Translations under genes and position numbers: made by a program
NCBI GenBank assembly: GCA_040437565.1
Contig: JBDOQK010000002.1
Span: forward strand, 1,054,001 to 1,092,121
DNA from: Albugo candida
Lineage: Eukaryota
Direction of reading: 5' to 3'
Length of the DNA: 38,121 nucleotides
Part shown: positions 417 to 36,356 of the stretch, in pieces
How the letters are laid out: each line of letters opens with the position of its first letter
Numbering within the stretch: the stretch's first letter is position 1
Notes under the pieces: model-generated
Seen by the model: the letters and a program-made list of their open reading frames with translations, nothing else
What the model was told of the DNA's origin: nothing
Databases searched by the model: none

Positions 417-3400
417 CATAACCCATATCTAATATTAATAAAATGTCTACAATCTAATCTATATCAATTATATTTCTGGTAAACACTTCTTCATATGCAT
501 TAGAACGAGTACTGAATGTTTGAGAGGCATTGAGCTAGAGATGGATGTGTAACTGTGGTTGAAAAGCGCTGGGTTGGTTCTAAATAATATAGATAATAAA
601 ATGACAATCTTCTTGGTATTGTACAGTATATGTGATGTTAGAATCTTCAGCATGGCCTTTAGTGTCCAATGTGGTCTAAATCATCAGCACAAAGATTCTC
701 TAGTTTATGCTCATCTAGGCGCGACCCTAGTATGCTTCGGTTAGCGAGATCGCCTACAGGAGAGGGAAAGGCCAGAGTTACTGAATACTGCCGAGCCGAT
801 TAGATTCGGTTTTATCCATTCTAATAAAGAGGATCGTTCACAAGAAGGTGATGTCAGTAAGCTATCTCAGGAGGAGTTGTGAGTGACTGTGAAATTTTTG
901 AAGGAGCAATTATAGAATCAATTCAGAATACCCGTGTGGCTTGTATCAAACATCGAACAAAAATGAGAATTTGCAAGTATTAACTGATGCGATCGGATTC
1001 GAACTTACGGAAGAAGATCAAGTGAGATATTTCGTGGAAGCTAAAATATCTGATAATTTAAGAGGTGTGAAACTCAAGAAAGTCATGGGGACGTTCAGAT
1101 GAGGCGAGAGTATGATGGGAACTTACAAATGGATGGTCTCACCCGCAACTTTATGAACGTCCTGAATGAGCAGTACATGGAAAATGCTGACGAGAATGAG
1201 CCAAAACGTTGCATACATTATCTAGTGAATGCGCTAAGACAACCGATGATGCAAGATTTGCTGAGATCAGAATTATATCGACATGCCAATTGAAGATACA
1301 GAGCGGGTATATCTTGATCTGTGGCTTGGTTGAGGACCCAAGTTATGCGATTCGCTATATTGCGTCGTTCCTTATGTCAATGACATCACATCAGAAGCAG
1401 GAAGTAAACGTAAGGATGTGTCTCACATACCTCATCCTAATGGGGCAAAAAAGGCAACGACGGGAGGACGACACACATATATGAACCCTGGACATATAAA
1501 CGTAGTTAGAAAAGACCGAAAACCTCCATGGAAGAGAAAGCAAAAGAAATCTACACGACAACGAAAATGTCTTCATTGTCGGTAGGTTGACCATACGTTT
1601 TAATGCTGTCCCTACTGTAATTCCGCTAAAGCACAGAAAATATGGCGGAACTACAAACTTTAGTGAAATGCCAAAACAGTCGGTGGAGTAGAAGAAGTCG
1701 GCAGAACTCCGATTTCGAGGCAGGAATTGGAATGAAGAAGATCTCCTTTTTAGCAGACAGACTTCACGGAGTTCTTATTACTCTTTTCAGCAAATTTGTT
1801 GATGGAGTGAAGTGCGCATGGAAACGCCTGAACAAACCGATTAAGTTGATGATTGTCTCTTAAGATATAGATGATATCCGCGAAGAAGCTAATATTCAAC
1901 TCGAATTCACAACTCCAGAAGGGCACCTGCGACCAGAAAATGTCGAATGTATGGTACTACCATGCAAACTGATAAGATGGATGGGGAATGAATTATATGA
2001 GTCCAATAGGATTCTGTCCTCGTCGTCTGTTGGTGGAATCTCGTCGAAAATGTTCTAATTTGCAGTCAGAAGACGACATCATGAGCTCGTTGGAGGCACT
2101 TATGAGTGCAGGCACTGACAAAACTGAATAGGATGTATCATTTGAGGTAAAGAGTGAAAAGCAGCAGTGCTACACTTGCTTTTTCGTATTATGGTGACAC
2201 ACCTAGACAGCGATTCTATGTGATTGTTACACTACGCACCCATCATAGCGATCCAAATNNNNNNNNNNNNNNNNNNNNNNNNNNNNNNNNNNNNNNNNNN
2301 NNNNNNNNNNNNNNNNNNNNNNNNNNNNNNNNNNNNNNNNNNNNNNNNNNNNNNNNNNGTGACACACCTAGACAGCGATTCTATGTGATTGTTACACTAC
2401 GCACCCATCATAGCGATCCAAATCATGACGAATAACAGGTATTGAATCAATTTAAGCTCAATACAGAAGAGACGCGAGCGGCCAGATATCATGCGGATGC
2501 GTAAAAACGTTGGACATTCTACTACAAATATGCACGCTCTGCTTTAGAGTTTTACTGGAAAGAAATCCGCATGTGAATTTGGCTCCTTTATCAGAGAGAG
2601 CTGATGAGGGAGTGGATCCAGTGCGATGTAAGGCACGGCAATATACTTTAGAGCATGGTGAGTTTCTGGAAAAACACACGAAAGGGCTTGATTTACAAAC
2701 GAGTGAAGGCGATGGTGTTCTCTACCCCCAATTGTAAGAAGAATTGGTATGAATCAGTTCCTCATGGCGGTTGACGCACAGTAGGTCAAAGAACGAACGG
2801 AACGTTGATAACGATTGATTTGGGCTGACGGCCCCTAGTCGGGATTATATTTCATTTCTTACCGATTTGGGGTTGCCGCTCCCACGAGAGTATGAATATG
2901 TCGTAGTGAGAGATTTGCTTTTCTGCAAAGAGATATTCGGAAACGAATTATCTAAAGATTAGACTGAATGATCGTTTAGGCTATGAGGACATGGACAAGG
3001 CTTGTTGATCAGAATTCTTGTCCTTTATAAAGACAAGCATTCGAATTGAAACCGAAAGAATATGAATTTTGCATAAAAGAAGCTCTGTTGTGCGAGCGAA
3101 TTGTTTCGGAGGAAGAGGTTAAGAACGAACCTGCCAGAGTCTGCATACCAGCTTACATTCCAGTCCGTCAGCTAGAGAAGAGCTTTGGCAATTGGTTTGT
3201 ATGGTCAACTAAATGCGCAATAGCGTTCCACGGTACAATCACATGAATCGGCCACCCATAAAAGTGCTGGGAAAGGATCATAAAGCCGTAGTTGAACGTA
3301 TAATACGGAGAGCGCTACGCATCTTTTTAACCGAGGTGGGAAGTCGAAGACGCCGCGCTTGCGGGTGTTGAAAAGTCTCTGGCTCAGATGTTTTCGGTTG

Positions 3401-3582
3401 AACAATACGGATTCTACTACTGTAGTAAACGGCTGTACAGATGCATTTTCATTGGATTAAACAGCAGTTATCCAAAGATCCCTTTCCAATAAATGTATCG
3501 TAATTTACAATTTTAAGAGCATCCTACTCAAATGTTCCTTAGTGGCTTATTCACCGGGCCACAACTACACTGATCCATCGCA

Positions 3583-4765
3583 TAGCGTATCCACTCGACG
3601 ATTGGTCTCATCACTTGGATTATACCAACCACAAGTGGCAGATCATTTTATGTGGGAGTAAAAAGCACGGAAAGGAAACATTATTTTCTATCTAATCCAC
3701 GCTCACAACTTTCACGAATCGTCTGGAAACCTCCCGAACCAACCAAGAGTCATTCGATTTCGACACATTGGTCATCACAGGAGAGATCGGAAGCACTGGA
3801 TTCCGAACGAATTCGAACTTTTATGGCTACATCACGGCATCTTCGAAACGTGTATTACCAATTTTCGAGGATTTACAGTTTCGTCTAGCCTTTCGGATGT
3901 TGCCAGTTCGATCTCGTTTCTGCTTCTTAAAGGATATTCAGCCCGACATTATATTGTGCACGCAGACTTCGTGTGGGGCAGTGGAATCCGATCAACATCT
4001 CTTTTTAGAGCGCGATCACACGGCACAGTTATGGAGGGAGTTACTCCCTAGTTGGGATCAGTTTTTCTCCTCTCGACCACNNNNNNNNNNNNNNNNNNNN
4101 NNNNNNNNNNNNNNNNNNNNNNNNNNNNNNNNNNNNNNNNNNNNNNNNNNNNNNNNNNNNNNNNNNNNNNNNNNNNNNNNCGCAACGCAAGGATCATTTG
4201 GTGGATTTTTCAGAAGTCGAAGATCATTGCTGCGGGTACGGCACAGACAAGTCAAAATGCAAGTGCAACTCAGATCCTAGTCCTAGTTGGCTGGTTATAC
4301 TCACCGTAGTGTGGCGCACACCAATTAGACCGAAGAAGAGCATGAAACCATCAACAAAAAATTTCAACTTATTGCGGAAGCGTATGGAATTCTCCCCGAT
4401 GAAGAGAAACGTGAGCGGTACGATCGTGGAGAAGACGTCACCGGCAACCAACAAGAACAGCACCATCCGTTCGGTAGAGGCAATCCTTTCCGAGGCTCAC
4501 ACGTTTTTCAACAAGGCGGACAAACCTTTCATTTCACATTCAATTGATACAACTTTACAGCTTTACAGCATTCACAAAAAGCTGGACACAGTCTCGTATT
4601 AAGGATGCTGATGCTACTACGGTACGGGATTATCAACGAGACGACATCGTATCATCTCTCACAGGTATTTCACGAAACGATTTTTATATGTATAAATGTT
4701 ATTTAAGTTAGCCTAGGCAACTAGAGAAGTCACTTAGTCTAATTCAAGTAATATAGACACCTTCA
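3583..4765 (+). mobile_element. Non-LTR retrotransposon (L1/Tx1-like), copy 1, 5'-truncated, spans a gap
   Basis: ORF2 C-terminus with zf-RVT-like motif LPVRSRF...C...CGAVESDQHLFLE (3768-4280). The 3' UTR is shared with copies at ~14071-14382 and 35946-36090. Flanked by a 14-bp direct repeat. Confidence 0.85.
4329..4547 (+). pseudogene. Captured fragment of a DNAJC3/P58IPK-like J-domain protein (J-domain C-half plus G/F-rich tail, up to the stop codon)
   Basis: Frame absent from the ORF track: TEEEHETINKKFQLIAEAYGILPDEEKRERYDRGEDVTGNQQEQHHPFGRGNPFRGSHVFQQGGQTFHFTFN*. It has the J-domain signature KF..I.EAY..L.D..KR..YD and a DNAJC3-like end (D.GED...NPF...GG.F.F.FN*). Confidence 0.85.
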
Positions 4766-5342
4766 ACTGATCCATCGCAGAGAACAAAGCCTATCCCATT
4801 GTCGCAATATTCAGGGAAGCAATTTTCTTCTGCATCGACCCCGTCATTTTGATTCATATACCGACCATCCAAGTCTCTGTTAGATTTCAACGGGTGGCGG
4901 CAATTGTAGTGGGTGGTCACCGTGGGTCCTAAACAATATAAACCCCTATTGTGTATGCGATGAAAGATATGCGAAAGGATGTATATTTCTTTCTTCAACC
5001 TTGTTTGCCTTGCGCCACGTATGGTTCTATGCCCCAGTGGTCAAGGAAGATCCCAGCAAATAATATTCCGTGAAATCTTCGCGCACAGCACATTCCGCTG
5101 CTTTTAATGATGGTCTGTTACGCTGTTTACCCTATTTGGTGTGTTCAAACAATGTGTTTGCGATAAAGGTACCCATTTACTAACTTCCGAGATCTACGAT
5201 ATAAAAGGGCTCTTGGGACGGATCTCTATTATACCAGTGTACGATGTGCTTGGTCGAACAACTGATTCGTGAGCTTTTACGGTGCGCTGGAGTGCACCTC
5301 AGTGAGTGGCGACTTTAACCGTCTGATTGGTGTCAGGTCCTT

Positions 5343-7696
5343 CTGATATTCCTACCCATTTCAATTCACAGTCGCTTAACTACGATGCGCAATGTTGCAA
5401 CGATCACAGAATGACCAGTATGACTGCACTGCAGCTCAAAGATCGCATTGTGCTACAGTGAGAGTCACTCATCATCTCTTCACTGCAAGATGTTCGTCGA
5501 CGTCAAAGCGCTCACATTGAATGGATTGCTGTGTTTTTCGAAAGTTGACACTATGTCTTGTATACTGATGCCTGGAATCACGAACATGCAAGCTCAGGAC
5601 TAAATGAAATGGTCGAGCTGAATTAACGTCCACTGTATCAAACTGGATCTATGAATTTGGAATCTTTCTAGACTGGAAGCGCTCGAGGTCCATGCTTACA
5701 GACTCAAGTGTTTTACTGACCGTGAATTCAATTTCTGTGAGGATATTTTTTATGGTTTCTCACAATTCCGGGGATCATACTACGGAAAAATTGCTTGGAA
5801 AGCGGTCGCGCGGCACGTGGGAGCGCTCTGAGTTGTGGCGTGGACTGAGCGGCGGATGAGAAAACTCTGCTGCCCTGGTGAAACGATATTGCCTACTATA
5901 CTAGGTGGGGACCAGCTCGTGGCCAACATTGCAAAACGTCAGGTCATCAATATTCCTTAGGGAAATGCAGCAAGTCAGCTAGTTGTTCGAGGCACATTGG
6001 CCCAAGCTCGTGCGCCGCTCAAGATCCTGCCTTCACCAACGAAACAGAGTAGGAACAGTAACCTTGGTAGAGGGCAGTAGTGTACAGTGGCCTGCGTTTT
6101 ATTTTACTAGATTTTCTAACATCTGGATCGAATAGATTTAGAGATCTGAAAGGTTTTTTAGATTGAAGAGATTAAGATTAACAGAACTAATTCTCGACTG
6201 CGGAAGTCACTATCCAATCATACAGTTGGCATGCGAAACAGGTTCGAGCTCATTGATCCTCTATAAACATATTGTATTGGTAGCATATAGTGCATCTCAC
6301 TAAGAACCAGCAACTTTAGCGGCCCTGGAAAAATTGCTAAGGCTTGGCCAAATTTACAAATTACACAGAAAACAAGACTTTGGCAACAAAGGGCATGCTC
6401 TAAGCTTCCCTTCGCAAGTCTCGGATTTTTATTATCTCAACTTTTCATGGAGCAGTAGCGGTGCAAAGTNNNNNNNNNNNNNNNNNNNNNNNNNNNNNNN
6501 NNNNNNNNNNNNNNNNNNNNNNNNNNNNNNNNNNNNNNNNNNNNNNNNNNNNNNNNNNNNNNNNNNNNNCTGATATTCCTACCCATTTCAATTCACAGTC
6601 GCTTAACTACGATGCGCAATGTTGCAACGATCACAGAATGACCAGTATGACTGCACTGCAGCTCAAAGATCGCATTGTGCTACAGTGAGAGTCACTCATC
6701 ATCTCTTCACTGCAAGATGTTCGTCGACGTCAAAGCGCTCACATTGAATGGATTGCTGTGTTTTTCGAAAGTTGACACTATGTCTTGTATACTGATGCCT
6801 GGAATCACGAACATGCAAGCTCAGGACTAAATGAAATGGTCGAGCTGAATTAACGTCCACTGTATCAAACTGGATCTATGAATTTGGAATCTTTCTAGAC
6901 TGGAAGCGCTCGAGGTCCATGCTTACAGACTCAAGTGTTTTACTGACCGTGAATTCAATTTCTGTGAGGATATTTTTTATGGTTTCTCACAATTCCGGGG
7001 ATCATACTACGGAAAAATTGCTTGGAAAGCGGTCGCGCGGCACGTGGGAGCGCTCTGAGTTGTGGCGTGGACTGAGCGGCGGATGAGAAAACTCTGCTGC
7101 CCTGGTGAAACGATATTGCCTACTATACTAGGTGGGGACCAGCTCGTGGCCAACATTGCAAAACGTCAGGTCATCAATATTCCTTAGGGAAATGCAGCAA
7201 GTCAGCTAGTTGTTCGAGGCACATTGGCCCAAGCTCGTGCGCCGCTCAAGATCCTGCCTTCACCAACGAAACAGAGTAGGAACAGTAACCTTGGTAGAGG
7301 GCAGTAGTGTACAGTGGCCTGCGTTTTATTTTACTAGATTTTCTAACATCTGGATCGAATAGATTTAGAGATCTGAAAGGTTTTTTAGATTGAAGAGATT
7401 AAGATTAACAGAACTAATTCTCGACTGCGGAAGTCACTATCCAATCATACAGTTGGCATGCGAAACAGGTTCGAGCTCATTGATCCTCTATAAACATATT
7501 GTATTGGTAGCATATAGTGCATCTCACTAAGAACCAGCAACTTTAGCGGCCCTGGAAAAATTGCTAAGGCTTGGCCAAATTTACAAATTACACAGAAAAC
7601 AAGACTTTGGCAACAAAGGGCATGCTCTAAGCTTCCCTTCGCAAGTCTCGGATTTTTATTATCTCAACTTTTCATGGAGCAGTAGCGGTGCAAAGT
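5343..7696. repeat. 1127-bp apparently exact duplication flanking gap 6470-6569 (5343-6469 = 6570-7696); probable assembly overlap
   Basis: Both copies abut the N run. No differences seen by eye. Confidence 0.85.
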
Positions 7697-7949: not shown

Positions 7950-10040
7950 ACATCCATGTATCGCAAAGCTTTTCGTGAGGTTCGACGTATCTCGTCCAGT
8001 AGAACACATGCCAAGGTAGCTGAAACTGTTCCCAGTAAATGTTTTCAAGTGTAATCGCAGTGTTTTCTGGAGTATAGATTAGCGGCTGCCCAAAAGTTTT
8101 CGATGTAGCTGAGCTCGCAGTGAAAATTTGGGTAAAATATTACTTGATGATCAGCGGCAACAATTCGCTCCTCTGTCATTCCTACTTGCGCTTTGAAGTC
8201 TGATTGGTTGGCCATAATTTGTCTGCTGCAGCAGGTTGCGCCATCCACAGGACATATTTTTTATCGCGCGTTCAGGCCACCCCATGTTCCTCCAGCACAA
8301 CTTTCAGTCCCTTTACCTGACCACGGAGCGTTTCATCAGGATGGTATAAGCAGAAACCAAATCCTGAGAGTAACCGTGTCCCACGTTGTTGCACGAATCT
8401 TTGGCTGATTGCTAACACTTGACAACTTCATTGCGCCGGCGCGAAGGGCATCGAGGGCTATTGGATTGTGTCCAGTTGCATTGTCAAAGGAAAAAAGAGC
8501 TTGATAGACGGGAAATTGAGCTTCGAAGATCGGGATAGCCAAGTCACAGACTTGTTTGCACAGTTTCTCTGACGTCTACCATCCGTCATTCTGCGTGCCA
8601 GATTGCATGATGATGCAGGCCGCTGCTTGTAGGTCAGGATGCTGAGCAGCCTTTCCTACATCAAGTGCTAAACATCCTNNNNNNNNNNNNNNNNNNNNNN
8701 NNNNNNNNNNNNNNNNNNNNNNNNNNNNNNNNNNNNNNNNNNNNNNNNNNNNNNNNNNNNNNNNNNNNNNNNNNNNNNATGCAGGCCGCTGCTTGTAGGT
8801 CAGGATGCTGAGCAGCCTTTCCTACATCAAGTGCTAAACATCCTATGATGTTGCAAAGGAAGTCGCTGACGTGATTGAGCCTGCCCTGTCCCTTTTTTCG
8901 TAATGGTTGTTCACCGTCTGGTAACCAAAGACGCTTGAGTCCATCATGAGCGGCAAAAGTACTCTCATCATGAGTTACCAAGATGAGTGGACGAATGCCG
9001 TCAGGGGCGAGGTGATTGCAGTGAACTCATTGTTACCATCGAATTCCTCCTTCCCAACAAAAGTCGGCATCCGCGCCTCAAGGTCGGCCATTCGCTCCAG
9101 GAAGTGTTGCCGGTACGCAAGGACATCCTCCCGCTCATGGCCGTCAATGTATATTCCTTTAGTCACTGTACGGTATTTGATGTCCAGTGAATGGAGCCAG
9201 CGTGTCGCAGTCCTTTCAGAGATTGTGGAAGATGGGGCGTATCTAAGTCCCGGTAGGATGTTCATGTTGACATGTTCTGTCAGAGCTGATACTTCCACCT
9301 TGAACTTGTTCGCTCAAAGATACTCCTGAAACGGTAGAATGCAGTCTCATCCTGTAGGTAGCTTCACCGTTTTCCCGTCTGCGACAAAGGCAATTCTTCA
9401 TCTTCTAGACAGAGTGTTGCCCAAGCACGCAGAGAGCGCGCAAAATAAACATACCTACCAGCACCTTCCGCTATCAGGGTGGTAGCTTCTATTCGCGCAT
9501 ATCCAGACTTCACCAGCTGAAGATAAGAAAGAACTGCAAGTCACCGGTTTTGCTCGGATTTACCAGTCTTTGCTCGGGTGGCAAGTGTGTTAATGGTGGA
9601 TGTCAGCTTCTCCCTGTTCAGACTGCACCATCCTCGTCCTCATCCTCTTTGTCACCCTCATCCGTGACCTCTGCTTCTTGCAAAACTGGTCCTGTAACAG
9701 CAAAGTATTTGGTAAAAAGATTACAGCCAAAAGCAGCCTTCTTCAGTTCGGCTCTTTTCCGTCTTTGAGTTCGGAATGCACCACTTGTATATTGGATTGG
9801 CCTGTTATGGTTTGATCCTGGTAATGGTAGAACTATAACAGCTGCTTGATAGGCTCTTCCGATATTTGCTTCAACAGAGGCGAAGTCGAGATTTTCGTCA
9901 TCATTGCCCTCTGAAACATCCAGGTCTTCTCCAGAACTGCTATCAGTAGACATATGAATGCCTGAGCTGTTATCGGTTTTGGCACGCTTAAGGTCTCTCA
10001 TTTCCCGCATCTGCCTTTTTAACTTTGTTGGGCGAGGCAT
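7950..10040 (-). pseudogene. Frameshifted DDE transposase of the TIR element
   Basis: Fragments in order: MPRPTKLKRQ.., TATRWLHSL..KGIYIDGHEREDVLAYR, VTHDESTF (D1), FSFDNATGH (D2), KGLKVVLEEHG, CCSRQIMANQSDF, YPNFHCELSYIENFW (E). The 3' boundary is approximate. Confidence 0.85.
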
Positions 10041-12432: not shown

Positions 12433-13669
12433 AGGGCTCCATCGATGCGGAAATGCTCAGCAACAAGGCGCTCAATGTCCTAGACAGGGATGCTGGAGAC
12501 GTTTACCGACTTCAACATCATGCAGGAGATCAATCGGCGTTCCAGCACGGTGAAGGATAATCATCTCCCGGACGTTGAGGCTCTTTTCGCCGAGAAGCTG
12601 CGAATGGGATCTTAAGGAAGACGACATTAAAGCCCATATCTTGAAGCATTTCGCTTCTTTTAACAAGATCGTGGGAAACTATGGGCTCCAAAATGTGATT
12701 GGACACACCAACCCCAAAAGTCAAGATGCGATAATGTAGACAAAGAACAGGACCAAGATCTTGATCGATAAATCGCGTCCACAATGCTGAAGCGTGAGAT
12801 CATGCTGGTTGCCCTCGAGTATCGCAAGGCTAAGGCGGATGAAAAGCTCCATATTAGCTGATTCTGGAACGTGCTCGTGAGCAACAGCATTTACCTTCTG
12901 ATGGCAATAGAGGATACACCAAACCAGACTACACAGATGAAACCGCCTATCACTCGCAAGTCTCATACCAGTATGTAAAGGTTTCATGAACGATGATAAC
13001 ACATCTCGACCCTCAAGCCAGCACCCACCTAAACCAGCAACTTCCCATCACCCCGCGATGGCTTTCTGGTGTGTAAAGGTCCTTACAGCATCATCTAACG
13101 CACAGAGGGATGAATCCCAACGAGCCATGCAAGAGCGCATGGCAGCACGTGCCTCATTGATGCGCGTCACACTTTCTTTGGACCAGACCCACAGCTATCA
13201 GCGGTCCTAGCGGGTAAAGTAGAGGTCCCGCTCTGCACTGACACGGGTTGGATGTATCCATCATTCCCTGCAGTCTTTTGATTGGCCTCCCACTCGAAGG
13301 TGGTTGTTGGTGCCACGTTGGTCGACCGCAAGCGAGTGACATTGGACGTCCAAGTACGTACTGCTGCAGAACCTGACAACATCAGGGCTGCTGACTGTCT
13401 CGTCCTGGACGAAGAAAAAGACCAACTTATTCTTGGAAAAGATGTCTCAGCGCTCTTGGTGTCCACGTTGGAGCCATGATCGCTAAGCTAGAAGAGGGAC
13501 CAGCCACCGATACAGATGGTGATGTTCTTACCACCAATCTTGCTTTTGAAGTTGGTTTCGACGTCGATTAGAAGATCCTAAATCTTCAATCTTCATTGGA
13601 GCAAGGAGCACTGTTGGAAGAGGGTAAGGATTGTGGCCTCGCGCATGAACTATATGAACTCGCCGTCCA

Positions 13670-14380
13670 CGTCTCAATTTGCCGGCTACTAAGCAACCCG
13701 CCAATTTAGTAAAAACAACTCGGAAAAACAACTTTTTNNNNNNNNNNNNNNNNNNNNNNNNNNNNNNNNNNNNNNNNNNNNNNNNNNNNNNNNNNNNNNN
13801 NNNNNNNNNNNNNNNNNNNNNNNNNNNNNNNNNNNNNAGCGATCAGCAACTCCGACAATTCCAGCACTTTCCGTCATTCACACCACGTTTAGTGCGCACG
13901 TTCGGTACTTACGAAGACAGTGTTACGACCAAGAGGAACGCATTCGGCTTGCAAAGGTGCTGGAGCAACTCTCAACGCAAGGATCATTTGGTGGATTTTT
14001 CAGAAGTCGAAGATCATTGTTACGGGTCCGGCACAGGCGAGCGGGAAGGCAAGTGCAACTCGGATCCTAGTCATAGTTGGCTGGTTATGCTCACAGTGGT
14101 GTGGTGCACACCATTTTTTGCAAACCACGGTACTTTTGGACCATTTTTACCACCACACATTTTTACAACTTTACAACTTTACAGCATTTACAAGCTGGAC
14201 ACAGTCTCGTATTAAGGATGCTGAGGCTACTACGCTACGAGATTATTAACGAGAAGACATATTATCATCTCTCACAGGTATTTCACGAAACGTTTTATAT
14301 GTGTATATATGTTATTTAAGATAGCCTAGGCAACTAGAGAAGTCAGTTAGTCTAATTCTACTAATATAGTCACCTTCAAC
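13670..14380 (+). mobile_element. LINE copy 2, both ends present, interior collapsed into gap 13738-13837; inserted in Gypsy B pol
   Basis: 5' end matches copy 3. ORF2 end PALSVIHTTFSAHVRYLRR...QGSFGGFFRSRRSLLRVRHR..* (stop 14068-14070). TSD TGAACTCG[C/G]CGTCCA at 13655-13669 and 14381-14395. Removing the element restores Gypsy ELAVQHRDIW. Confidence 0.9.
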
Positions 14381-16936
14381 TGAACTCGGCGTCCAACACA
14401 GAGATATTTGGTGGAACCAGCTAGGATACGATCCGCTGCAACGGTTGAGCCCTTCTTGGTGAAGTTCCAGGTCGACGCTAACCTGTAACTGTCAAAGCCA
14501 GGCCGTATCCGAAGCAACAAAGTGCAAATTGGAGAGGAATTTGTCTACAAGATTCGCCAATTCTACGAAATTACTGCGCAGTATGGATTGAAGCTAAGTG
14601 TCACGAAAAGTCTACTCTTATGCCGTGAGGTACTGAAGTGCGGCAAGATCTTGAGTGAAACAGGGATACGACATGATCCCACTCGACTTGGCGCATTGAC
14701 GTCCCTTCCGGCTCCCAGTAATGCAGCTGATCTGCAACGTCTACTGTGTACCGGCAACTGGCTACGTGATTTGGTCACAGACTTCTCTCGCACTGCAGCA
14801 CCGCTCTACTACAGACTCGGCGCTGTAGTTACGAAAACGAGTCGCACTAAAGGTATTGCAGCCGGTATCTCATTGGCTTGTACATCTGATGAACTTGACG
14901 CATACAATGCTTTCCTTGTTGCACTCCTTCAGTCAGCCCAGCTTTCGTTCCCACAAGATCAGTCAACCTTCTGTTTGTTTACCGACGCCTCCAACTGTGG
15001 ATGGGCTCTTATTGCGACGAAAGTTCGTATGTACCAGGACGACGACCCAGTTGAAAAACAAGCCCATGAGTTGCTGGCATGTATGGGTGGTATTTTCCGT
15101 GGATCACAGATTAACTGGTCAGTCACGGAAAAGGAAGGTTACCGATCATCAAAGCGTGTTTTCAACTCGAGTTCCTGCTGGCTCGATCTCGTGGATTTCG
15201 CGTATTTTGCGATCACGCAAACTTGATTTAAATCTTCTCACCGGCTCAGTCCGTTAAGTGTCACGTCCGTGAAAGCTTCAGCGCTGGGCTCTCCATCTAG
15301 TACCCTACCTATATGAGATTGAACATCTCAGGGGTGAGCGTAATGTTTTCGACGACATTGTTCCTCGTTGGATTGCCTCATCCCAGCCTGTGAAAGCCAC
15401 CGCCTATGATACGCGGTTGCGTAGTGACGCACAGCTCTCACCACTCCGCCCGCTCCAAACACCGGGTTTTGCCGAACCGTCGGTCGAGGAGATCGTCACG
15501 CATCAGCAGCGCTCATCAAGCCACGCTGGTCCCCTTCCTACAGATGGATCGCCCAACTTAGTAGCAGGGAAGGTATGGCTACCTCCGGACGCAGATCACT
15601 TCATCATGCGCGCGTTTATAATGGCGCACTGTTGTGTGCGCGGACACGGCGGCGTTCATGTAATAGTCAACAATATCAAGGGAGATTTCATTGTTGACAA
15701 CCTTCGGCGCAAGGTGCAAGCATTCGTGAAAGAGTGTTAGCTTTGTCGACATATCAAAGGTCTGTGGATTTTGAATCGAGATTGTTCTATATATGATGTC
15801 GCGACCAAACGCAATGAAACCCTTCTGATAGACTATCTCTATCTTGGCACTATAGCATCTCAGGTGCTAAATATTGTCTAGTGCTTACGGATGCGTTCCA
15901 ACCACTTCTTTGAGTTGATTGCCTCCGACACTGCAAGTGCGCGGGTCGCAGCTGACGCAATTATCAGTTGGTACAAGCGCTTTGGTTTGCCAATTTCCCT
16001 TATGACCGACAATGAGAAGCTTTTCGTAACCAAGTCATTGCTACTTTGACTGCTAAACTCGGTATGGCGCACAAGATATCACCAGTCTGCGCGCCTTGGC
16101 TTGATGGAGCTGTCGAGTGCGTGAACCGTGACGTTTTACAGGTAGCACGTGCGACGTTACTCGAAGCCCTGCTCGATGTGCAGAAACGAGACACTATACT
16201 TCCGACGATTAGGTCCTTCGTCAACCTTTTCTCCGTCGAGAGCCTGGGTAACAAGTGCCTGATGGAGGTCTTCACTGGTCTCCCACCGCCGCCTTCGCTG
16301 GGCTCTTTTATCGCGCCCGATGGAGACAGCACCATCGCTATCACGGTTAACACTGACTAGGTAGCGCATCAGTTAAACCAACTTACGATTCGTCTACAAC
16401 AGATGCCTAAGTTTTTGGAATCAAGCAAGTGTGACCGTCATCAAGCTGCTCGCGATGCATCATCCAGTGCTGTTGCCAACTTTGACGTGGGCGATTTCGT
16501 ATTGTGGTCGCGCTTGGACCCTCGTTTGTCGGGTTCCAAGCTTATGGTTAGTTGGTTCGGCCCCTTTGTAGTCACTGGAATCAAGGAGCATTGCTTAAAA
16601 GTTGACAATTGATCAGTAAGTGCATGGACTAAGACTTGAACTTTATTCAGAAACTGCACTCGAAGTCACAGAGGAACTACGTGAACACATATCTACGCAG
16701 CTTCTTGTTCGTGAGAGACTTGCAATATACACTACAATATTCCGGCTTCTGCAGGGGAGCTTAAGGTCGCCAGGGTTAGGCTTAAAGATGCTGAGGCTTC
16801 GTGGAAGCCGTTTTCCCCAGCATAAATGCGGATGCTCCCGACCTGGTGTCTACATTCTTGTACGCACATCCATCGTCGCCCAATGTCATTCGACTCCAGC
16901 ATGAGCTCCAATAATGTTCGCCTTCGGAAATGGGTT

Positions 16937-17560: not shown

Positions 17561-18619
17561 AACATTAAGACAGGCAGAAACTCCGTCATTCGAGAGATAA
17601 TTACATCGATTAGACCAGCAGTGCGGTGTCTTTACAAGAAGCAAAATGGCGTGTCACTTTCCAAAATGCAAGCTCATTTTATTCTCAGCCTCTCATATGA
17701 ACGCGAGTTGCTAGGTATNNNNNNNNNNNNNNNNNNNNNNNNNNNNNNNNNNNNNNNNNNNNNNNNNNNNNNNNNNNNNNNNNNNNNNNNNNNNNNNNNN
17801 NNNNNNNNNNNNNNNNNNGTCACTTTCCAAAATGCAAGCTCATTTTATTCTCAGCCTCTCATATGAACGCGAGTTGCTAGGTATGGGAGAAACCCTCCGA
17901 TAGGTCCGACGAAAGGTGATGGAGCCAATGCAGATGGTTACAGGTAATCGAAAGTTATCTGGAACCTTGAGTTGGAAGACAGGATCTCCACCGCCACGCA
18001 CGTCGACGTGGGGTGAGCTTATATATGCGAAACTAAAAACAGACATCTGAAACCGGAGTATGTCGATTCGGGCCAATGATGGTCGCCCTGTTCATCAGGG
18101 CGTTGACGGCGTCAAGAATAAGGATTTGAGATGGCTGTTTGCACTGAAGTAAGTGACGATCGAGTAGATGTATCAGCCTTCCATTAACATCTTGGCTCCT
18201 CGCGTCGTCTTCCAACATCTTCAGTCCTCCGCAGCATTCAGATGCGACTATATCCACAAGGTAGAGTTTTTCCCATTTCACCACCTGGGCTTCATCATGT
18301 TCTATGACCCTGTTTAAGAACGGTATGGCTACGTGAGCTGCATTTTTGTGGCAGCGGCGATAGCACGCTTAAGGCTCCTTTGCATCACGTGGTGCATGAA
18401 TCCGGCTAGACTAGGGACAATAATCTCGACCATGCACTCGATAGAGAAACCACACCGCTTATTCTCTGTTACCTGAAGTTTCATTCGTTACACTTGCTCC
18501 ATATTTATAGTCTAAGTTGATATGGTATAAACGGATTTAGATGATTATAGCAGGATTTGTGCTTGTACTTCAGTATGGATTGACGGAAGACGATTGAATT
18601 AGTATCTATGGTGAGAAAA

Positions 18620-20813
18620 GCCATGACCGTCTTCACATCTTCTGGTAATGGCGATCACACGCTCGATTGCTAAATGTTTGGGATGTCATCATGCACATTT
18701 TCGTCTTCATGGAACTAAGTGTCTTACCGATTTTCGAAGATCTTCAGATGTGAGGAAGATAATCGTTATTCCGATGATGCACAAGGAAGGAAGGCTATGT
18801 CAGCAGACCAAACTCTGAACGTATCAGGTACTCACTCACAAACTAAGGTAAAATGTGCAACTAAAAGTACACACAAGTCGGCACAACAAATACTTTTATC
18901 TTTCAACAACTTACGGTGTACGCTCCATGACTGTAGTTGAACTACTTAAATTAATCTCCGCAAATTATTTTAGTTGCTGGCAGTATTGGCCGTTGTCCAT
19001 TTACGGATGGGTAACCTATTTTTGCGTTTCTGGATTTCACGAACCATAAGCTCTTCCATAAGCTGCACGGGAGATGTGATGACCGTGTGTTCAGTTGCTT
19101 TTGCGTCGATAGCGAGAGCTAATACATTGCCATACATCTCCATTGGTGATGAGGCAAAAGCGAGCACCGGAATATTGCCCCCGTCCTTCAGAAATCCACC
19201 ACAAGAACATTTTGCTTCTCCACGTTTAAACACTGCAACTCTTATGGGGGTCTCTTGAAGAGAACCACCAGAAAGTGTTGAACAATCTCATCTGATACTG
19301 CCGAATTCCACAACCCCCTACACAATTTTATTAGCATGCTGTAACCCTTTTACAATATCGTGAGGGCCGCCTCGAGCAGGTTGAAATAAGTATTAAACTT
19401 GTAGTTTTGGTCGAAGAGAAGCACAAATATAATTGCTATGATTGATACTGATCGTTCTTTGCCACTAATATAAAGAAATATTCTGCTTATTCGCCATAGT
19501 CTTCTGCAGAGAAGTGTGTTTGGTCATCAATCATCGCTGTATTGAAGCGACAATAGTGTTGTGCATGGTAGTAGGAACGACTGAGTTGTTGTATCAAGTT
19601 GGTGTGGACAGCACATCATCTACATAAAGCATGCTCTTGCCGCTCAACGGAACGAAATACTGCATTNNNNNNNNNNNNNNNNNNNNNNNNNNNNNNNNNN
19701 NNNNNNNNNNNNNNNNNNNNNNNNNNNNNNNNNNNNNNNNNNNNNNNNNNNNNNNNNNNNNNNNNNGCCATGACCGTCTTCACATCTTCTGGTAATGGCG
19801 ATCACACGCTCGATTGCTAAATGTTTGGGATGTCATCATGCACATTTTCGTCTTCATGGAACTAAGTGTCTTACCGATTTTCGAAGATCTTCAGATGTGA
19901 GGAAGATAATCGTTATTCCGATGATGCACAAGGAAGGAAGGCTATGTCAGCAGACCAAACTCTGAACGTATCAGGTACTCACTCACAAACTAAGGTAAAA
20001 TGTGCAACTAAAAGTACACACAAGTCGGCACAACAAATACTTTTATCTTTCAACAACTTACGGTGTACGCTCCATGACTGTAGTTGAACTACTTAAATTA
20101 ATCTCCGCAAATTATTTTAGTTGCTGGCAGTATTGGCCGTTGTCCATTTACGGATGGGTAACCTATTTTTGCGTTTCTGGATTTCACGAACCATAAGCTC
20201 TTCCATAAGCTGCACGGGAGATGTGATGACCGTGTGTTCAGTTGCTTTTGCGTCGATAGCGAGAGCTAATACATTGCCATACATCTCCATTGGTGATGAG
20301 GCAAAAGCGAGCACCGGAATATTGCCCCCGTCCTTCAGAAATCCACCACAAGAACATTTTGCTTCTCCACGTTTAAACACTGCAACTCTTATGGGGGTCT
20401 CTTGAAGAGAACCACCAGAAAGTGTTGAACAATCTCATCTGATACTGCCGAATTCCACAACCCCCTACACAATTTTATTAGCATGCTGTAACCCTTTTAC
20501 AATATCGTGAGGGCCGCCTCGAGCAGGTTGAAATAAGTATTAAACTTGTAGTTTTGGTCGAAGAGAAGCACAAATATAATTGCTATGATTGATACTGATC
20601 GTTCTTTGCCACTAATATAAAGAAATATTCTGCTTATTCGCCATAGTCTTCTGCAGAGAAGTGTGTTTGGTCATCAATCATCGCTGTATTGAAGCGACAA
20701 TAGTGTTGTGCATGGTAGTAGGAACGACTGAGTTGTTGTATCAAGTTGGTGTGGACAGCACATCATCTACATAAAGCATGCTCTTGCCGCTCAACGGAAC
20801 GAAATACTGCATT
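18620..20813. repeat. 1047-bp apparently exact duplication flanking gap 19667-19766 (18620-19666 = 19767-20813); probable assembly overlap
   Basis: Both copies abut the N run, and the ORF track gives identical translations offset by 1147. Confidence 0.85.
19802..20434 (-). CDS. Putative 3' part of a spliced gene of unknown function with a hydrophobic C-terminal segment (duplicated at 18655-19287)
   Basis: Four GT-AG introns (20151-20078, 20061-20008, 19986-19942, 19874-19817) keep one frame: ...REIQKRKNRLPILMERTPCTFYLSFLPSLCIIGITIIFLTSEDLRKSQSSV*. The 5' end is unresolved (in-frame TGA at 20437-20435). Confidence 0.35.
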
Positions 20814-21614: not shown

Positions 21615-24600
21615 TCAATAGCAATCATCACCGATGAAAGTCACACGTTTCCTTTTATAACCTTTTGAGTTGTACATTACGCCATGTGATATTTCAAGAA
21701 AATGCGCTTGGTATCGCTGATCGTGCTGATCTTGCATCGAATTAGGTGGATGACCATCCCCTGGGGCGAATGCAGTTGTAGCGCCTTGCCCAGAATGACC
21801 TTTCTTCTGGCTAGTCGTTGCATCATGTTCCTCGTGCCGTGATACATTACCATAATTAAACATGACACTATACTGCAAGTCTGCCTCGTCACTAATTTCG
21901 CTAGGATCAAGTAAGCGTAAATTATCGAGCAAATAATCCACTCTTTGTCGTAATCGCGAAGCTTTTTTAGTGCATTTGATGATTTTCTCATTGATTTGAT
22001 TTGTACTTGATTTTCCAGCAATCAATAGAGATTTGTATTGATTCTTCACCAAATGCCTTGCGTTCATGACAAATTCCTCCCCGGAATATTGTGAAGCATT
22101 TTCAGTCGATTCGATAAAACTTTGTGTATTATCGTGGAGTTGATGCAAGATTTCTTCGAGACTTCCGCACATTACAAGTTGTTCGACTACCACTGCCTTC
22201 TTGGCCCCGATGCGATAAGCACGACTGATGACTTGATCTGCTAACGACTTATCCCATATCTCATCGGCAAAGAATATATGACTCACAAAGGAGAGATCTA
22301 GGCCATGAGCTCCGACATCAGTCAAGCATAAGACCTGTATTTTCGGATCACTTCGAAAAAGATTTAGCTGCCTCTGCCGTTCCGGAATACTCAACCCTGT
22401 AACGAATGTAGCGCAATGGATGCCTTGTTGTGCACACGAAACTCTAATTCGCCAGATATGTTCTTTGAATTGAGAGAAAACTATCACTTTCAAAGACGTA
22501 GAGGTCTCGGTTCCTCTTGAATCAGTATCTTTAGATTCGACTGAGCTCAACTCACGGATTCGATGAGTTATATAGCATGCTTTACTCGACCAAATTTTTC
22601 TGAAGTCTTTTGTGAAATCCAAGCTGCGCTTTTGAACACGCAAGTTGATACCTACAGAGTTCAAGATACCAGCTTCACATCTATCTGATAACAGGGAGCT
22701 CGGACTGGCAGAAACGCTACCATTAATTCCATCGGAGATCAGCTCAGCGGTTCTACCTCTACTTGAGCTAGTTCTTCGGTCTGTAAGCCTTTCAGCCTTA
22801 GCCACGATATCTGAAACAAAATCATCATCTCCCCATTTTAATTCAAATCCTGGTTGCAAGCGTTGTAGATCCTCTGGATCGTATTCTTTCCCACATGTTG
22901 CACATACAGGGCCTCGTACATCAAATTGTTTTTTGACGCATGCTGCGCAGACAAGGTGGCCACAAGTCAGCACAATTAATAGTTGTAGTTGCCGATCACA
23001 AACTCCGCATCGTGTTGTACGTCCTGGTAGCTGCGCATCTCTTAAAAATCGCAACAAATCGTGTCGAATATCACCCTCAATTTGATGAAAATTCATTAAT
23101 TCGATTGTTTCGAGGTACGATTTTCGACTGAGAGTAATGTTCAGCAAACATGCACCAGCACAAGCTAGACGAAGACTTCGAGTAAGTTGATTCGCATACT
23201 TCCTATTTCGCGGGTTGAGCAAACTGTCTGGATGCAACTTCCCAGGCTGCTTTGGGTCGATATTGGTTAGAAAAAGGTTTGTGACCACAGCACTAGCAAC
23301 AGCATTATAGATTGCGTATTCTTCGGGCATGGCTTTTATGTATACCGATTTCCTTACTGGTTCTGAAGGAACGCTCTGAACGCAGCGCTTGGTGTGTCGG
23401 ATCATAATACGATGCAGGAGTTGCTTCAGCCGGAAGCAAGCTATTGTAGGCTGTTTTTCGAAAGGTAAAGAAATAGCCTTGGACCAAAATTTGCCATTCG
23501 CGGATCCAAGCGGTAAGTCACGGAGAAAGAACAGTTGTCCATGTAGATACTTCAGGTCTTCCGAAGTATTAGTATTTGGAGTAGGTGTACCCGTCATCAA
23601 CCAACGCTTATCAGATGTGAGCCCTTGTGCCATCTGTAGTTGGTATGAGCAACTTTGAACTCCCAATCTATGACCTTCATCCACGACGATGCGCACCCAA
23701 TGTAACATGAGGAAAGGTGAAGTTCCTTTTCTAATTTGACCATTAGCATACCGTTCTAGTCCATCAGAACCATACCGATCAGGGGCTCTCTCTTCCAAAG
23801 CCGAAGGTGGCCTTCGATGTCTCCATTCGTCCGTAAGCCTATTGAATGTTGTTATTACAATATCGTGCGCAGCAAGATCTTCTGCATCGGGGGAGATATT
23901 GCCTCCATAATCGACATACACACGCAGCATCCCGTATTTTACATGTACAGTAATTTGAGACGCCCAGTGTCCAACAAGCGAAGTAGGAACGATAATAAGT
24001 GTCGTTTTGGATGGTATCAGTTGACTACTTCTTATCGATCGGCCACGAGACGTAGAAGAACGCAGTGAGGATCCAATCCCTTCAACAGTGAGATTGGTCA
24101 TCTCCGAACTCTGACCATTTGTCCGCAGTAGCAGCGCAAGCATGGTGACGGTTTTACCAAGGCCAGGTTCATCACAAAGTAATCCGCCTCGACAATCTTG
24201 GTATTTGCTGGTACGATTTCTCACCAGCTTGCTTTCCGTAAAGTCGATCGCACAAGTATCTGAAGTTGCGCTCTTGGGAAAATAAAACGGATGGCTTCCT
24301 CCATTCGTTTGTTTTCGTTCGCGGTACAGCATCCATTTCAGACATTGCTTTTGATGGGGAAATAGGCCTAAGCGAAGACCGGGGACTACTTCATAAGAAA
24401 GATGCTGGAATATGGAGCACACTCCGCTTATTGATGCGATATTTCTTGCATTTAACATTTGAAGGATTCGTTGAATCAATATCGTGGGTAAATCAATCAA
24501 AGACCTGTTCGGACTTATCTCTTTCGAACATATCGACTTGGGTTGTCGTATAGGCATTTGGTCGGCTTCACATGAAGTTATGATACTCGAAAACACGTCT

Positions 24601-25370: not shown

Positions 25371-25772
25371 GTTTAGTCAAAATAAATAGACTTATACGTC
25401 GACTTCAGCTATATCGATCAAGCAGATGCATTTGCAAATCATACTTACAATCTCGTAGAACTCTGCACGAATGATGGCAACATGACTCGTTATGCTTTCT
25501 AGATAACATCTTGAGCAGTAAATATTGTCTACAGTCGCATATAAAAAACAGAGGTATTAACTCAAAGGTGCAGATTACATTCGAAAAAGACGCAGCAAGC
25601 ACATAATTAAAGGCTGCTGCTGTGTGATCTTAGTGTGCTGAACAAGTTATATACAATTTGGTACTATCACTATCCAATATCAAGAATCTTCTGATCCATA
25701 AAGCGCAATCTAGAAGCGTTTCATGTGAATTTGGTTAAAGGAGTTTTTATGTAACGACCTTTCGAGTTTTAA

Positions 25773-35945: not shown

Positions 35946-36354
35946 CAGTTGAAGGTGTCTATATTACTAGAATTAGACTAACTGACTTCTCTAGTTGCCT
36001 AGGCTATCTTAAATAACATATCTACATATAAAAACGTTTCGTGAAATACCTGTGAGAGATGATAATATGTCTTCTCCTTGATAATCACGTNNNNNNNNNN
36101 NNNNNNNNNNNNNNNNNNNNNNNNNNNNNNNNNNNNNNNNNNNNNNNNNNNNNNNNNNNNNNNNNNNNNNNNNNNNNNNNNNNNNNNNNNCATGAGGGTT
36201 GCCACGTCACGACAAGTGGACGCTAGCACCCTGGGTTGTGTCGATATGTCGACTTGAACCATTGTTTTCGAGAGGAAAGAGTTGAAAAAAGTTGTTTTTC
36301 CGAGTTGTTTTTACTAAATTGGCGGGTTGCTTAGTAGCCGGCAAATTGAGAAGT
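35946..36354 (-). mobile_element. LINE copy 3: 5' end with ORF1 start (ATG 36262, MVQVDISTQPRVLASTC..) and 3' end, interior in gap 36091-36190
   Basis: Reverse complement matches both the 5' end (TCTCAATTTGCCGGCTACTAAGCAACCCGCC...) and the 3' end (...ATATAGACACCTTCAACTG) of the other copies. No clear TSD. Confidence 0.85.
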
Positions 36355-36356
36355 GG
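36343..36356 (-). promoter_or_regulatory. Oomycete INR/FPR core-promoter motif at the LINE 5' terminus
   Basis: CCACTTCTCAATTT fits YCAYTYYNCAWTTT and lies ~90 nt upstream of the ORF1 ATG. Copy 2 has CCACGTCTCAATTT (13667-13680). Confidence 0.7.

What the first reader, a model, noticed from the sequence alone, without database searches (positions are those of the whole stretch)
4324..4547. LINE 3' UTR has swapped 50 nt for the coding end of a host DNAJC3-like chaperone gene
Seen: LINE copies 1 and 2 align up to ..GCACACCA and again from TACAACTTTAC... Between these points copy 2 has 50 nt (14114-14163). Copy 1 has 224 nt encoding, on the same strand and without introns, 72 residues of a J-domain C-half plus tail that end exactly at the stop codon. 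A CACATT lies near the 3' junction in both sequences, and the whole copy is bounded by a 14-bp TSD. Known: LINE reverse transcriptases can switch templates to cellular RNAs. Inference: a double template switch (LINE RNA to DNAJC3 mRNA and back) or a gene-conversion event placed a host fragment inside a mobile LINE, which could spread it or generate small RNAs against the host gene. The HPD motif is absent, so a working J-domain is unlikely.
Basis: partly seen in the sequence, partly recalled or inferred. Interest (0 to 1): 0.8.

Follow-up and report, generated by a model that had tools for sequence, protein, structure and literature searches.

The report
Host chaperone gene piece inside LINE
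A dead, truncated LINE retrotransposon copy in a white-rust oomycete (Albugo candida-like) genome really does carry about 221 bases copied from the end of the organism's own P58IPK/DNAJC3-type chaperone gene, a genuine but single-copy and apparently inert curiosity.

Summary
Window 4327-4547 (plus a shared TACA, 4548-4551) replaces the 47 nt seen in LINE copy 2. It encodes 72 residues that are 96% identical to the C-terminus of an Albugo candida TPR + J-domain protein (CCI47740.1), whose best solved relative is human DNAJC3.

The carrier is a LINE. Relatives of its ORF2 remnant have APE endonuclease and RT domains. The ORF2 stop is at 4278-4280, so the insert lies 46 nt into the 3' UTR.

The copy (3583-4770) is 5'-truncated, frameshifted and bounded by a 14-nt target-site duplication.

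It is not an assembly chimera. A gene model from another A. candida assembly (CCI49417.1) is collinear with the flank, LINE and fragment. Contigs from two other public runs span the junctions.

The insert interior is covered by one contig per run, while the LINE arms are covered by dozens or more. So this is one dead copy, not a spreading element.

The fragment lacks HPD and any ATG, follows an in-frame TAG, and has three amino-acid changes at positions conserved in all seven parent-type sequences.

The mechanism is not resolved. The choices are a double RT template jump at insertion, or later break repair with a templated filler. The intron test is uninformative.

The parts
3569..3582 (+). 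Left copy of the target-site duplication (ACTGATCCATCGCA)
   Evidence: the repeat finder family D2. There are 14 exact bases, or 17 with one mismatch, and the second copy sits exactly at the LINE 3' end.
3583..4280 (+). 5'-truncated LINE ORF2 C-terminal remnant, interrupted by the scaffold gap 4081-4180. It has a frameshift near 3846-3850 and a stop TAG at 4278-4280.
   Evidence: tblastn of LINE proteins: frame 1 at 3625-3849, frame 3 at 3846-4079 and 4182-4277, matching about residues 1120-1256 of a 1372-aa APE+RT protein. The relative P0013 ends at the same stop.
4281..4326 (+). Proximal LINE 3' UTR up to the 5' junction. 4326-4328 forms an in-frame TAG directly before the fragment.
   Evidence: Alignment to copy 2. 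Contigs of other LINE copies follow the window to 4326 and then diverge (joints table).
4327..4547 (+). Fragment copied from the host P58IPK/DNAJC3-type gene: the last 72 codons plus the stop, covering J-domain helices after HPD and the C-terminal tail.
   Evidence: Pfam DnaJ. 96% identity to CCI47740.1 residues 419-490. A parent contig in run X15 matches 4316-4551 with 6 differences and continues upstream into ...KQALEWHPDK.
4548..4551 (+). TACA shared by the parent 3' UTR start and the LINE: 3' junction microhomology.
   Evidence: Parent contigs match through 4551, and LINE copies match from 4548.
4552..4770 (+). Distal LINE 3' UTR to the element's 3' end (...CAACTGA, no poly(A)).
   Evidence: 90.6% identity to copy 2 and 92.5% to copy 3. 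Many contigs of other copies diverge at 4768-4771 (loose ends).
4766..4779 (+). Right copy of the target-site duplication. Its first 5 nt overlap the LINE terminus.
13838..14383 (+). LINE copy 2 (ORF2 end, stop at 14068-14070, 3' UTR). It serves as the comparator, with the ordinary 47-nt segment at 14117-14163.
35946..36090 (-). LINE copy 3, last 145 nt only. The part that would show the insert site is hidden in gap 36091-36190.

Best explanation
Shown: 3583-4770 is one 5'-truncated, decayed insertion of a high-copy APE-type LINE of an Albugo candida-like genome. It is bounded by a 9-14-nt target-site duplication. In its 3' UTR, 46 nt past the ORF2 stop, the family's usual variable segment of about 47 nt is replaced. 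The replacement is 221 nt in sense orientation from the last 72 codons plus stop of the host's own ER-type co-chaperone gene (TPR repeats + C-terminal J domain, DNAJC3/P58IPK-like). The piece lacks HPD and any ATG, follows an in-frame TAG, and carries three amino-acid changes at positions invariant in the parent. It behaves as an inert pseudogene fragment. The same locus with the same fusion exists in another A. candida assembly, so the fusion predates the split between those two assemblies' alleles. Junction-spanning contigs in two more runs show the fusion there too; whether at this locus is not shown. Inferred mechanism (about even odds against the main rival): during the target-primed reverse transcription that made this very copy, the LINE reverse transcriptase copied the last 219 nt of LINE RNA. 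It then jumped at a TACA overlap onto the chaperone mRNA just past its stop codon and copied 221 nt. It jumped back onto LINE RNA at a patch of imperfect similarity (8 of 10 bases, 4316-4325) and went on for about 0.9 kb before 5' truncation. That yields a dead-on-arrival LINE-mRNA-LINE chimera that never spread.
For: - Structure: searches (two alignment blocks; TSD at the element's ends and none around the insert), and 48 with 33-35 (LINE ORF2 remnant; relatives have Exo_endo_phos and RVT_1).
- Parent identity: 96% identity; best PDB hit DNAJC3 2y4t, E 6e-45, over residues 13-452; TPR + DnaJ.
- No parent exons elsewhere in the window: tblastn of the 490-aa parent hits only 4350-4544.
- Not an artefact: the first 10 residues of CCI49417.1 are reproduced by the window's own 5' flank (ATG at 3532, GT-AG intron 3542-3585). 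The rest is collinear with 3582-3908 and 4350-4544. The X1 contig spans 4296-4672 and the X4 contig spans 4327-4672.
- Single copy: one contig per run covers 4349-4544. Of the contigs laid, that is 1 of 83 in X1, 1 of 817 in X3, 1 of 319 in X4 and 1 of 56 in X15. In X3 its depth is 55 against 69 for the unique flank. Summed depth on the LINE arms there is 19,000-120,000 away from the junction bins (about 600-3,000 in the bins at the junctions), and 43 joints of other copies skip the insert.
- For an RT jump: same sense as the LINE, direct fusion without poly(A) or its own TSD, short overlaps at both junctions, and one TSD around the whole element. TSD-flanked tripartite LINE chimeras made by double template jumps are documented (PMC2104539, abstract and sections 8-9 read).
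Against: - The jump back lands on LINE sequence only about 47 nt upstream of the departure point. That is what local break repair gives for free, but it needs tethering or luck for an RT.
- Published LINE chimeras end in a third, different RNA rather than returning to the LINE, and the Magnaporthe study found no microhomology at its junctions.
- Sense orientation is a 50% chance under a DNA route.
- The intron test cannot decide.
- The fold of the uninterrupted 3' UTR shows no significant structure at the switch points (z -1.1 and -1.7).
- In run X3 no listed contig bridges either junction. Its one insert contig mixes window letters (4387, 4395) with the parent letter (4491) and runs into the parent's 3' flank. 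I read it as a contig-builder mosaic but could not prove that.
- The parent's bases at 4316-4326 are inferred from the protein and from the count of mismatches, not read.
Confidence: 0.45

Rival explanations
1. Post-insertion DNA repair. A double-strand break in the 3' UTR of the already inserted LINE copy lost about 47 nt. It was sealed by microhomology-mediated synthesis, or by ectopic gene conversion, that copied 221 nt from the parent gene, its cDNA or its mRNA as filler.
For: - The change is a local replacement, a deletion plus a filler, at one spot.
- Both junctions have short overlaps: TACA at 3', and AT within an 8-of-10 patch at 5' (partly inferred).
- The fragment lies in a part of the parent that appears intron-free (collinear DNA-run contig), so a genomic DNA donor is as possible as an RNA donor.
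- The fragment is only 3 of 223 bases away from the parent, while the LINE arms differ from copy 2 by 9-12%.
Against: - No allele of this locus without the insert was seen. The window, CCI49417.1, X1 and X4 all have it.
- LINE arm divergence mostly reflects subfamily differences that predate insertion, so it does not date the event.
- Sense orientation is neutral.
Confidence: 0.35
2. Capture in an active master LINE. A full-length element acquired the fragment in its 3' UTR and produced this and other insert-bearing copies.
For: - Junction-spanning contigs of X1 and X4 differ from the window at 9 and 6 positions, all in the LINE parts. That could mean other copies.
- The insert sits in a segment of the 3' UTR that varies between copies.
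Against: - The insert interior is covered by one contig per run, at single-copy depth in X3.
- CCI49417.1 shares the window's 5' flank, so it is the same locus and not a second copy.
- Protein searches found no other chimera. Only the query itself combined both parts among 35 hits from 183 candidates, and the 1 hit among 5 candidates in the other search matched the LINE part alone.
Confidence: 0.08
3. A real, expressed small J-protein gene, as annotated (CCI49417.1, 'J domain-containing protein'), or the true last exon of the chaperone gene.
For: - A public gene model exists.
- The AG at 4327-4328 could serve as a splice acceptor.
Against: - The model's first 122 residues come from the 5' flank plus the LINE ORF2 remnant, read out of frame over its first part (3586-3846).
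- Pfam sees only profile positions 35-63 of DnaJ, with no HPD.
- The window allele has a stop where the model reads Y and a TAG before the fragment.
- The parent protein has no other match in the window.
- The three changes hit residues that are invariant in 7 of 7 parent-type sequences.
Confidence: 0.04
4. Assembly chimera: the fusion exists only in this scaffold.
For: - The scaffold is poor. It has nine 100-N gaps, five with duplicated flanks, and one gap lies 143 nt upstream of the junction.
- In X3 no listed contig bridges the junctions.
Against: - An independent annotated assembly has the same fusion at the same locus.
- The X1 contig spans both junctions and the X4 contig spans the 3' junction by 120 nt, and the two runs come from different studies.
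- Overlaps of 2-10 nt are too short to mislead an assembler.
Confidence: 0.02

Closest known systems
Bipartite and tripartite chimeric retroelements made by LINE reverse-transcriptase template switching (Magnaporthe MGL/Mg-SINE/WEIRD; mammalian U6-L1 and B2-U6-L1). Source: PMC2104539, abstract and sections 8-9 read.
   Same: The 3' part is a LINE 3' end. All parts are in one orientation and fused directly. A single TSD surrounds the whole element (14 bp in the fungal case, 14 nt here). A double jump is invoked.
   Different: Here the second jump returns to LINE sequence (A-B-A) close to the point of departure. The middle part is an internal piece of a protein-coding mRNA (CDS end, no UTR or poly(A)), not a small or non-coding RNA. 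Short overlaps occur at the junctions, whereas that study reports none. The host is an oomycete. The mechanism is not proven here.
LTR-retrotransposon-mediated retrocopies flanked by element sequence on both sides. Sources: PMC5470649, passages read; PMC5131818, search listing only.
   Same: A host mRNA piece is embedded inside a retroelement by two template switches at chance similarity, and is often an incomplete CDS.
   Different: Those arise in cytoplasmic LTR-element reverse transcription. This carrier is a non-LTR element made by target-primed reverse transcription.
LINE-1 chimeric insertions with mRNA fragments. Source: PMC11838501, abstract only.
   Same: LINE and host mRNA piece arrive as one insertion, recognised by a shared TSD.
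   Different: As far as the abstract tells, those are fusions at the 5' side of L1 (5' transduction, ligation, trans-splicing), not replacements inside the 3' UTR.
Templated filler insertions at repaired double-strand breaks (recalled from general knowledge, no paper read).
   Same: A local deletion is replaced by a few hundred bases copied from elsewhere, with microhomology at both junctions.
   Different: There is no direct evidence of a break here, and the event sits inside a retroelement with an RT-based alternative.
DNAJC3 / P58IPK (the parent gene family)
   Same: The parent has TPR repeats followed by a C-terminal J domain with HPD. Its best solved match is human DNAJC3 along nearly the full length. 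Some database relatives are named DNAJC3 or P58IPK by their sources.
   Different: The window holds only the last 72 codons, without TPRs or HPD.

Membership tests
DNAJC3/P58IPK-type co-chaperone (parent gene CCI47740.1) | Multiple TPR repeats N-terminal to the J domain | tested here: met
   Pfam TPR_1, TPR_2, TPR_19 and others across residues 21-362 of P0001.
DNAJC3/P58IPK-type co-chaperone (parent gene CCI47740.1) | C-terminal J domain with HPD | tested here: met
   DnaJ at 383-450, E 8.7e-25. The motif ...EWHPDK... is in the sequence.
DNAJC3/P58IPK-type co-chaperone (parent gene CCI47740.1) | Closest solved relative is DNAJC3 over the whole length, rather than another TPR-J protein | tested here: met
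   2y4t_A DNAJC3, E 6e-45, query 13-452 to chain 14-450, as the top hit. DNAJC7 was not compared explicitly.
DNAJC3/P58IPK-type co-chaperone (parent gene CCI47740.1) | ER signal peptide and ER location | not tested
   The N-terminus looks hydrophobic, but no predictor was run.
Functional J-domain protein (the window fragment itself) | HPD tripeptide and helices I-II | tested here: not met
   The fragment starts after HPD, and the Pfam match covers only profile positions 35-63 of 63. A TAG precedes it and it has no ATG.
Non-LTR (LINE) retrotransposon, APE type | ORF2 with apurinic-type endonuclease and reverse transcriptase | tested here: met
   This is met in relatives, not in this truncated copy. 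P0025 (1372 aa) has Exo_endo_phos at 17-231 and RVT_1 at 543-792. RVT_1 is present in 5 of 7 relatives scanned. The window matches their C-terminal region.
Non-LTR (LINE) retrotransposon, APE type | Insertion flanked by a target-site duplication, with variable 5' truncation | tested here: met
   A 14-nt repeat lies at 3569-3582 and 4766-4779. The copy begins at about residue 1110 of about 1372.
Non-LTR (LINE) retrotransposon, APE type | High copy number of 3' ends | tested here: met
   Dozens to hundreds of contigs and very high summed depth lie on both arms in 4 of 4 runs. The window holds three 3' ends.
Non-LTR (LINE) retrotransposon, APE type | Poly(A) or simple-repeat tail (defining only for some clades) | tested here: not met
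   All three copies end in ...CAACTG(A) without an A-run. The clade was not assigned.
Chimeric retroelement by LINE RT template switching | Parts in the same orientation, fused directly, 3' part being a LINE 3' end, and one TSD around the whole | tested here: met
Chimeric retroelement by LINE RT template switching | The source of the inner part is RNA (loss of an intron, or another RNA-only feature) | tested here: inconclusive
   A DNA-run contig that carries the parent's 3' flank is collinear with 4327-4551. It may be a parent/chimera mosaic. If it reflects the parent gene, there is no intron in the copied part.
Chimeric retroelement by LINE RT template switching | 5'-most part is a different cellular RNA | tested here: not met
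   The 5' part is again LINE.
Processed pseudogene | Includes the 3' UTR and poly(A), with its own TSD | tested here: not met
   The parent match stops 4 nt after the stop codon, and there is no A-run or TSD at the fragment's ends.

The most novel reading that the evidence does not exclude
This is a LINE-mRNA-LINE (A-B-A) double template jump made at insertion. It would show that an oomycete LINE reverse transcriptase can pick up an internal coding piece of a host mRNA and return to its own RNA. The variable 3'-UTR segment of this LINE family would then be a recurrent capture site. Because the sense copy of the P58IPK gene end sits inside a silenced high-copy repeat and is kept in several lineages, it could also feed small RNAs that touch the parent ER-chaperone gene of a biotrophic plant pathogen.
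Probability: 0.07. Interest if true: 0.6.

Novelty: new variant of a known kind. Interest (0 to 1): 0.3.

Why it matters
This is a clean, TSD-bounded example of a host coding fragment sitting inside a non-LTR element's 3' UTR, in a group (oomycetes) where the searches made here found no such chimera described. If the RT route is right, it extends the known bi- and tripartite LINE chimeras to an A-B-A form with a protein-coding middle part. That bears on how LINE 3' UTRs acquire new modules and how exons get shuffled.

There is also a practical point. A public protein entry (CCI49417.1, 'J domain-containing protein') appears to be a spurious model built on this locus. As a single dead copy with no sign of function, its biological weight is small.

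Tried and rejected
- Whole-genome search: not possible, because no genome is held for this window.
- Metagenome scans for a 40-nt piece of the insert and for a 24-nt conserved LINE piece found nothing. No further DNA of this organism could be fetched.
- Protein search with the other reading frame that runs across both junctions (4183-4599): 1 hit among 5 candidates, matching the LINE part only.
- Search with CCI49417.1 at similar lengths: 35 hits among 183 candidates, none chimeric except the query itself. One other hit (P0119) covers 96% of the query at 30% identity but is a TPR + DnaJ protein.
- RNA folds of the uninterrupted 3' UTR of copy 2: not better than shuffles (z -1.09 and -1.68), so there is no structural explanation for the switch points.
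- Pfam on the window's LINE-region ORFs: no family found. LINE identity came from the HMMER search of representatives instead.
- Run X15 (guessed RNA) shows only the parent's letters over the insert. This says nothing about expression of the chimera.
- In X1 and X4 the unique flank 4797-4880 has no cover, so whether their chimera is at this same locus is open.
- Rejected as informative: 4 non-synonymous against 0 known synonymous changes, which is too few to test selection.
- Supplementary files of the papers were not seen. The element lists of PMC2104539 might contain LINE-X-LINE cases.

Full report
**The observation**

Reading the window, a pairwise alignment and a self-BLAST confirm two repeat copies. 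They match at 4183-4326 / 13973-14116 (88.2%) and at 4548-4770 / 14164-14383 (90.6%). A third 3' end lies on the minus strand at 36090-35946 (92.5%). Between the two blocks copy 2 has 47 nt and copy 1 has 221 nt.

The frame starting at 4329 gives 72 codons and then TGA. It is preceded by an in-frame TAG and contains no ATG. Pfam DnaJ matches at E 1.7e-6, just above its cut-off, on profile positions 35-63 of 63, which is the part after HPD.

**The donor**

A search of 5.8 billion proteins for longer relatives returned 7 significant hits among 14 candidates. The best is a 490-aa Albugo candida protein (CCI47740.1). It is 96% identical over all 72 residues, which are its last 72.

That protein has TPR repeats and a C-terminal J domain with HPD. 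Its best solved relative is human DNAJC3/P58IPK, along residues 13-452 (E 6e-45). tblastn of this parent against the window hits only 4350-4544, so the window does not hold the parent gene.

The window's fragment differs from the parent at three residues (E to G, S to P, G to R). All three positions are invariant in the 7 parent-type sequences aligned, among them three named A. candida and one named A. laibachii entries.

**The carrier**

An HMMER search of 1.84 billion representatives with the ORF at 3696-4079 gave 100 hits at E up to 0.001, of which 35 were at E up to 1e-10. Of 7 hits scanned, 5 carry RVT_1. The 1372-aa one also has an apurinic-type endonuclease domain, and the query matches its residues 1178-1256.

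tblastn places the ORF2 remnant at 3625-3849 (frame 1), 3846-4079 and 4182-4277 (frame 3). So there is a frameshift, and only about the last fifth of ORF2 is left. A close relative's protein ends exactly where the window has TAG at 4278-4280. The insert therefore starts 46 nt into the 3' UTR.

A 14-nt direct repeat lies at 3569-3582 and 4766-4779, the latter at the element's 3' end. The whole 3583-4770 is thus one 5'-truncated insertion with a target-site duplication, and the fragment has no duplication or A-run of its own.

**Is it real?**

No genome is held, so I used public runs. 24 runs were listed and 20 hold part of the stretch, from 15 studies. Contigs of four runs were laid on 4181-5000.

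- In X1 a 376-nt contig spans 4296-4672, covering both junctions.
- In X4 a 346-nt contig spans 4327-4672, covering the 3' junction by 120 nt.
- Both are identical to the window inside the fragment.

Independently, a second A. candida protein entry (CCI49417.1, 197 aa, on another contig than the parent) is collinear with the window. Its first ten residues are reproduced by the window's own 5' flank (ATG at 3532, a GT-AG intron at 3542-3585). Residues 3-122 match 3582-3908, and the C-terminus matches the fragment. That is the same locus in another assembly. An assembly chimera is therefore very unlikely.

The same model reads the first part of the LINE remnant (3586-3846) out of frame and has only half a J domain, so it is probably a spurious annotation.

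**The parent in the reads, and the junctions**

In X15 a 2022-nt contig matches 4316-4551 with 6 differences. It continues upstream into sequence that translates to ...KQALEWHPDK, and downstream into sequence unlike the window. This is the parent.

Three of the six differences are the three codon changes (4387, 4395, 4491). The other three are not listed. They fit 4321, 4323 and 4326 if the parent encodes K-H-N-D-K-T as, which is an inference.

Other LINE copies follow the window up to 4326 and resume at 4548 or later (joints and loose ends). So the window is LINE through 4326 and parent from 4327. There is an imperfect 8-of-10 similarity patch before the 5' junction and a 4-nt overlap (TACA) at the 3' junction, right after the stop codon.

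A DNA-run contig (X3) that runs into the parent's 3' flank is collinear with 4327-4551, which suggests no intron in that part of the parent, though the contig may be a mosaic (see below).

**Copy number**

The insert interior (4349-4544) is covered by a single contig in each of the four runs, out of 83, 817, 319 and 56 contigs laid. In X3 that contig's depth (55) is like that of the unique flank (69). Summed depth on the LINE arms is 19,000-120,000 away from the junction bins, and about 600-3,000 in the bins at the junctions. 43 joints (15 listed, 28 not shown) are contigs of other copies that skip the insert.

Depth sums are not copy numbers, but the contrast is large. Protein searches found no other chimera. 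The fragment has not spread, and the carrier lacks everything needed to move.

**Results that do not fit neatly**

- In X3, whose flank contig is 100% identical to 4721-5000, no listed contig bridges a junction. Its one insert contig has the window's letters at 4387 and 4395 but the parent's letter at 4491. It ends at 4327 and runs 2259 nt into the parent's flank. I read this as a mosaic made by the contig builder from two near-identical copies, which would also explain the break at 4327. This is not shown.
- The X1 and X4 contigs differ from the window at 9 and 6 places, all in the LINE parts and none in the fragment.
- X1 and X4 do not cover the unique flank.
- The tables are truncated, and the tool could be called only once.

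**Mechanism**

Two routes fit.

(a) A double template jump of the LINE reverse transcriptase during the insertion event, from LINE RNA to chaperone mRNA and back to LINE RNA. In its favour are the sense orientation, the direct fusions with short overlaps, and one TSD around the whole element. There is also documented precedent for TSD-flanked tripartite LINE chimeras (PMC2104539, abstract and sections 8-9). Double switches that embed mRNA pieces inside LTR elements are also described (PMC5470649, passages).

(b) Repair of a break in the already inserted copy, with the parent gene or its transcript as a templated filler. In its favour is that the change is a strictly local replacement.

I put (a) at about 0.45 and (b) at about 0.35. 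Capture in a master element, a real gene and an artefact share the rest. Folding gave no structural clue.

**Comparison and novelty**

The closest known kind is the LINE template-switch chimera. This one differs in three ways. It returns to LINE sequence (A-B-A). Its middle part is the coding end of an mRNA. Its host is an oomycete.

Searches of the paper library found no description of this locus or of LINE-borne host fragments in oomycetes (Albugo candida + retrotransposon + LINE; Albugo + DnaJ + retrotransposon; oomycete + LINE + template switching + gene fragment). Supplements were not available.

I rate it a new variant of a known kind. It is real and tidy, but single-copy and apparently inert, so interest is about 0.3.

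Noticed in passing
window 2194-2423, 5343-7696, 8613-8844, 17653-17884, 18620-20813: Five of the nine 100-N gaps are flanked by 100%-identical duplicated sequence of 65 to 1127 nt on both sides. These look like unmerged contig overlaps, a scaffolding artefact that inflates the window.
   Followed up: partly
window 3532-4547; public entry CCI49417.1 (P0002): A public 197-aa 'J domain-containing protein' is a gene model built over this locus. It joins a flank ATG, a 44-nt intron, the LINE ORF2 remnant (its first part read out of frame) and the J-domain fragment. It is probably a spurious annotation.
   Followed up: yes
window 21615-25376 (-): A 1253-aa open frame with an SNF2-related domain, a RING finger and Helicase_C. 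This looks like a RAD5/RAD16-type helicase gene in a single exon.
   Followed up: no
window 25773-28496 (+): A 907-aa open frame with no Pfam family at E up to 0.01.
   Followed up: no
window 14489-15226 (+): A weak RT_RNaseH_2 match (E 8e-5, below the cut-off). This is likely an LTR-retroelement remnant right after LINE copy 2.
   Followed up: no
window 4326-4581 versus other copies (tables 5 and 5c) and 14117-14163: The LINE 3' UTR segment that was replaced varies in length and sequence between copies. It is 47 nt in copy 2, and about 33-34 other letters bridge 4326/4327 to 4581 in contigs of X3 and X4. It is followed by short ACTTTACA-like tandem units.
   Followed up: partly
window 13666-13737 and 36286-36357 (-): A 72-nt stretch upstream of the gaps of LINE copies 2 and 3 is 98.6% identical between the two loci. 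It has no LINE protein homology, and its relation to the LINE is unclear.
   Followed up: no
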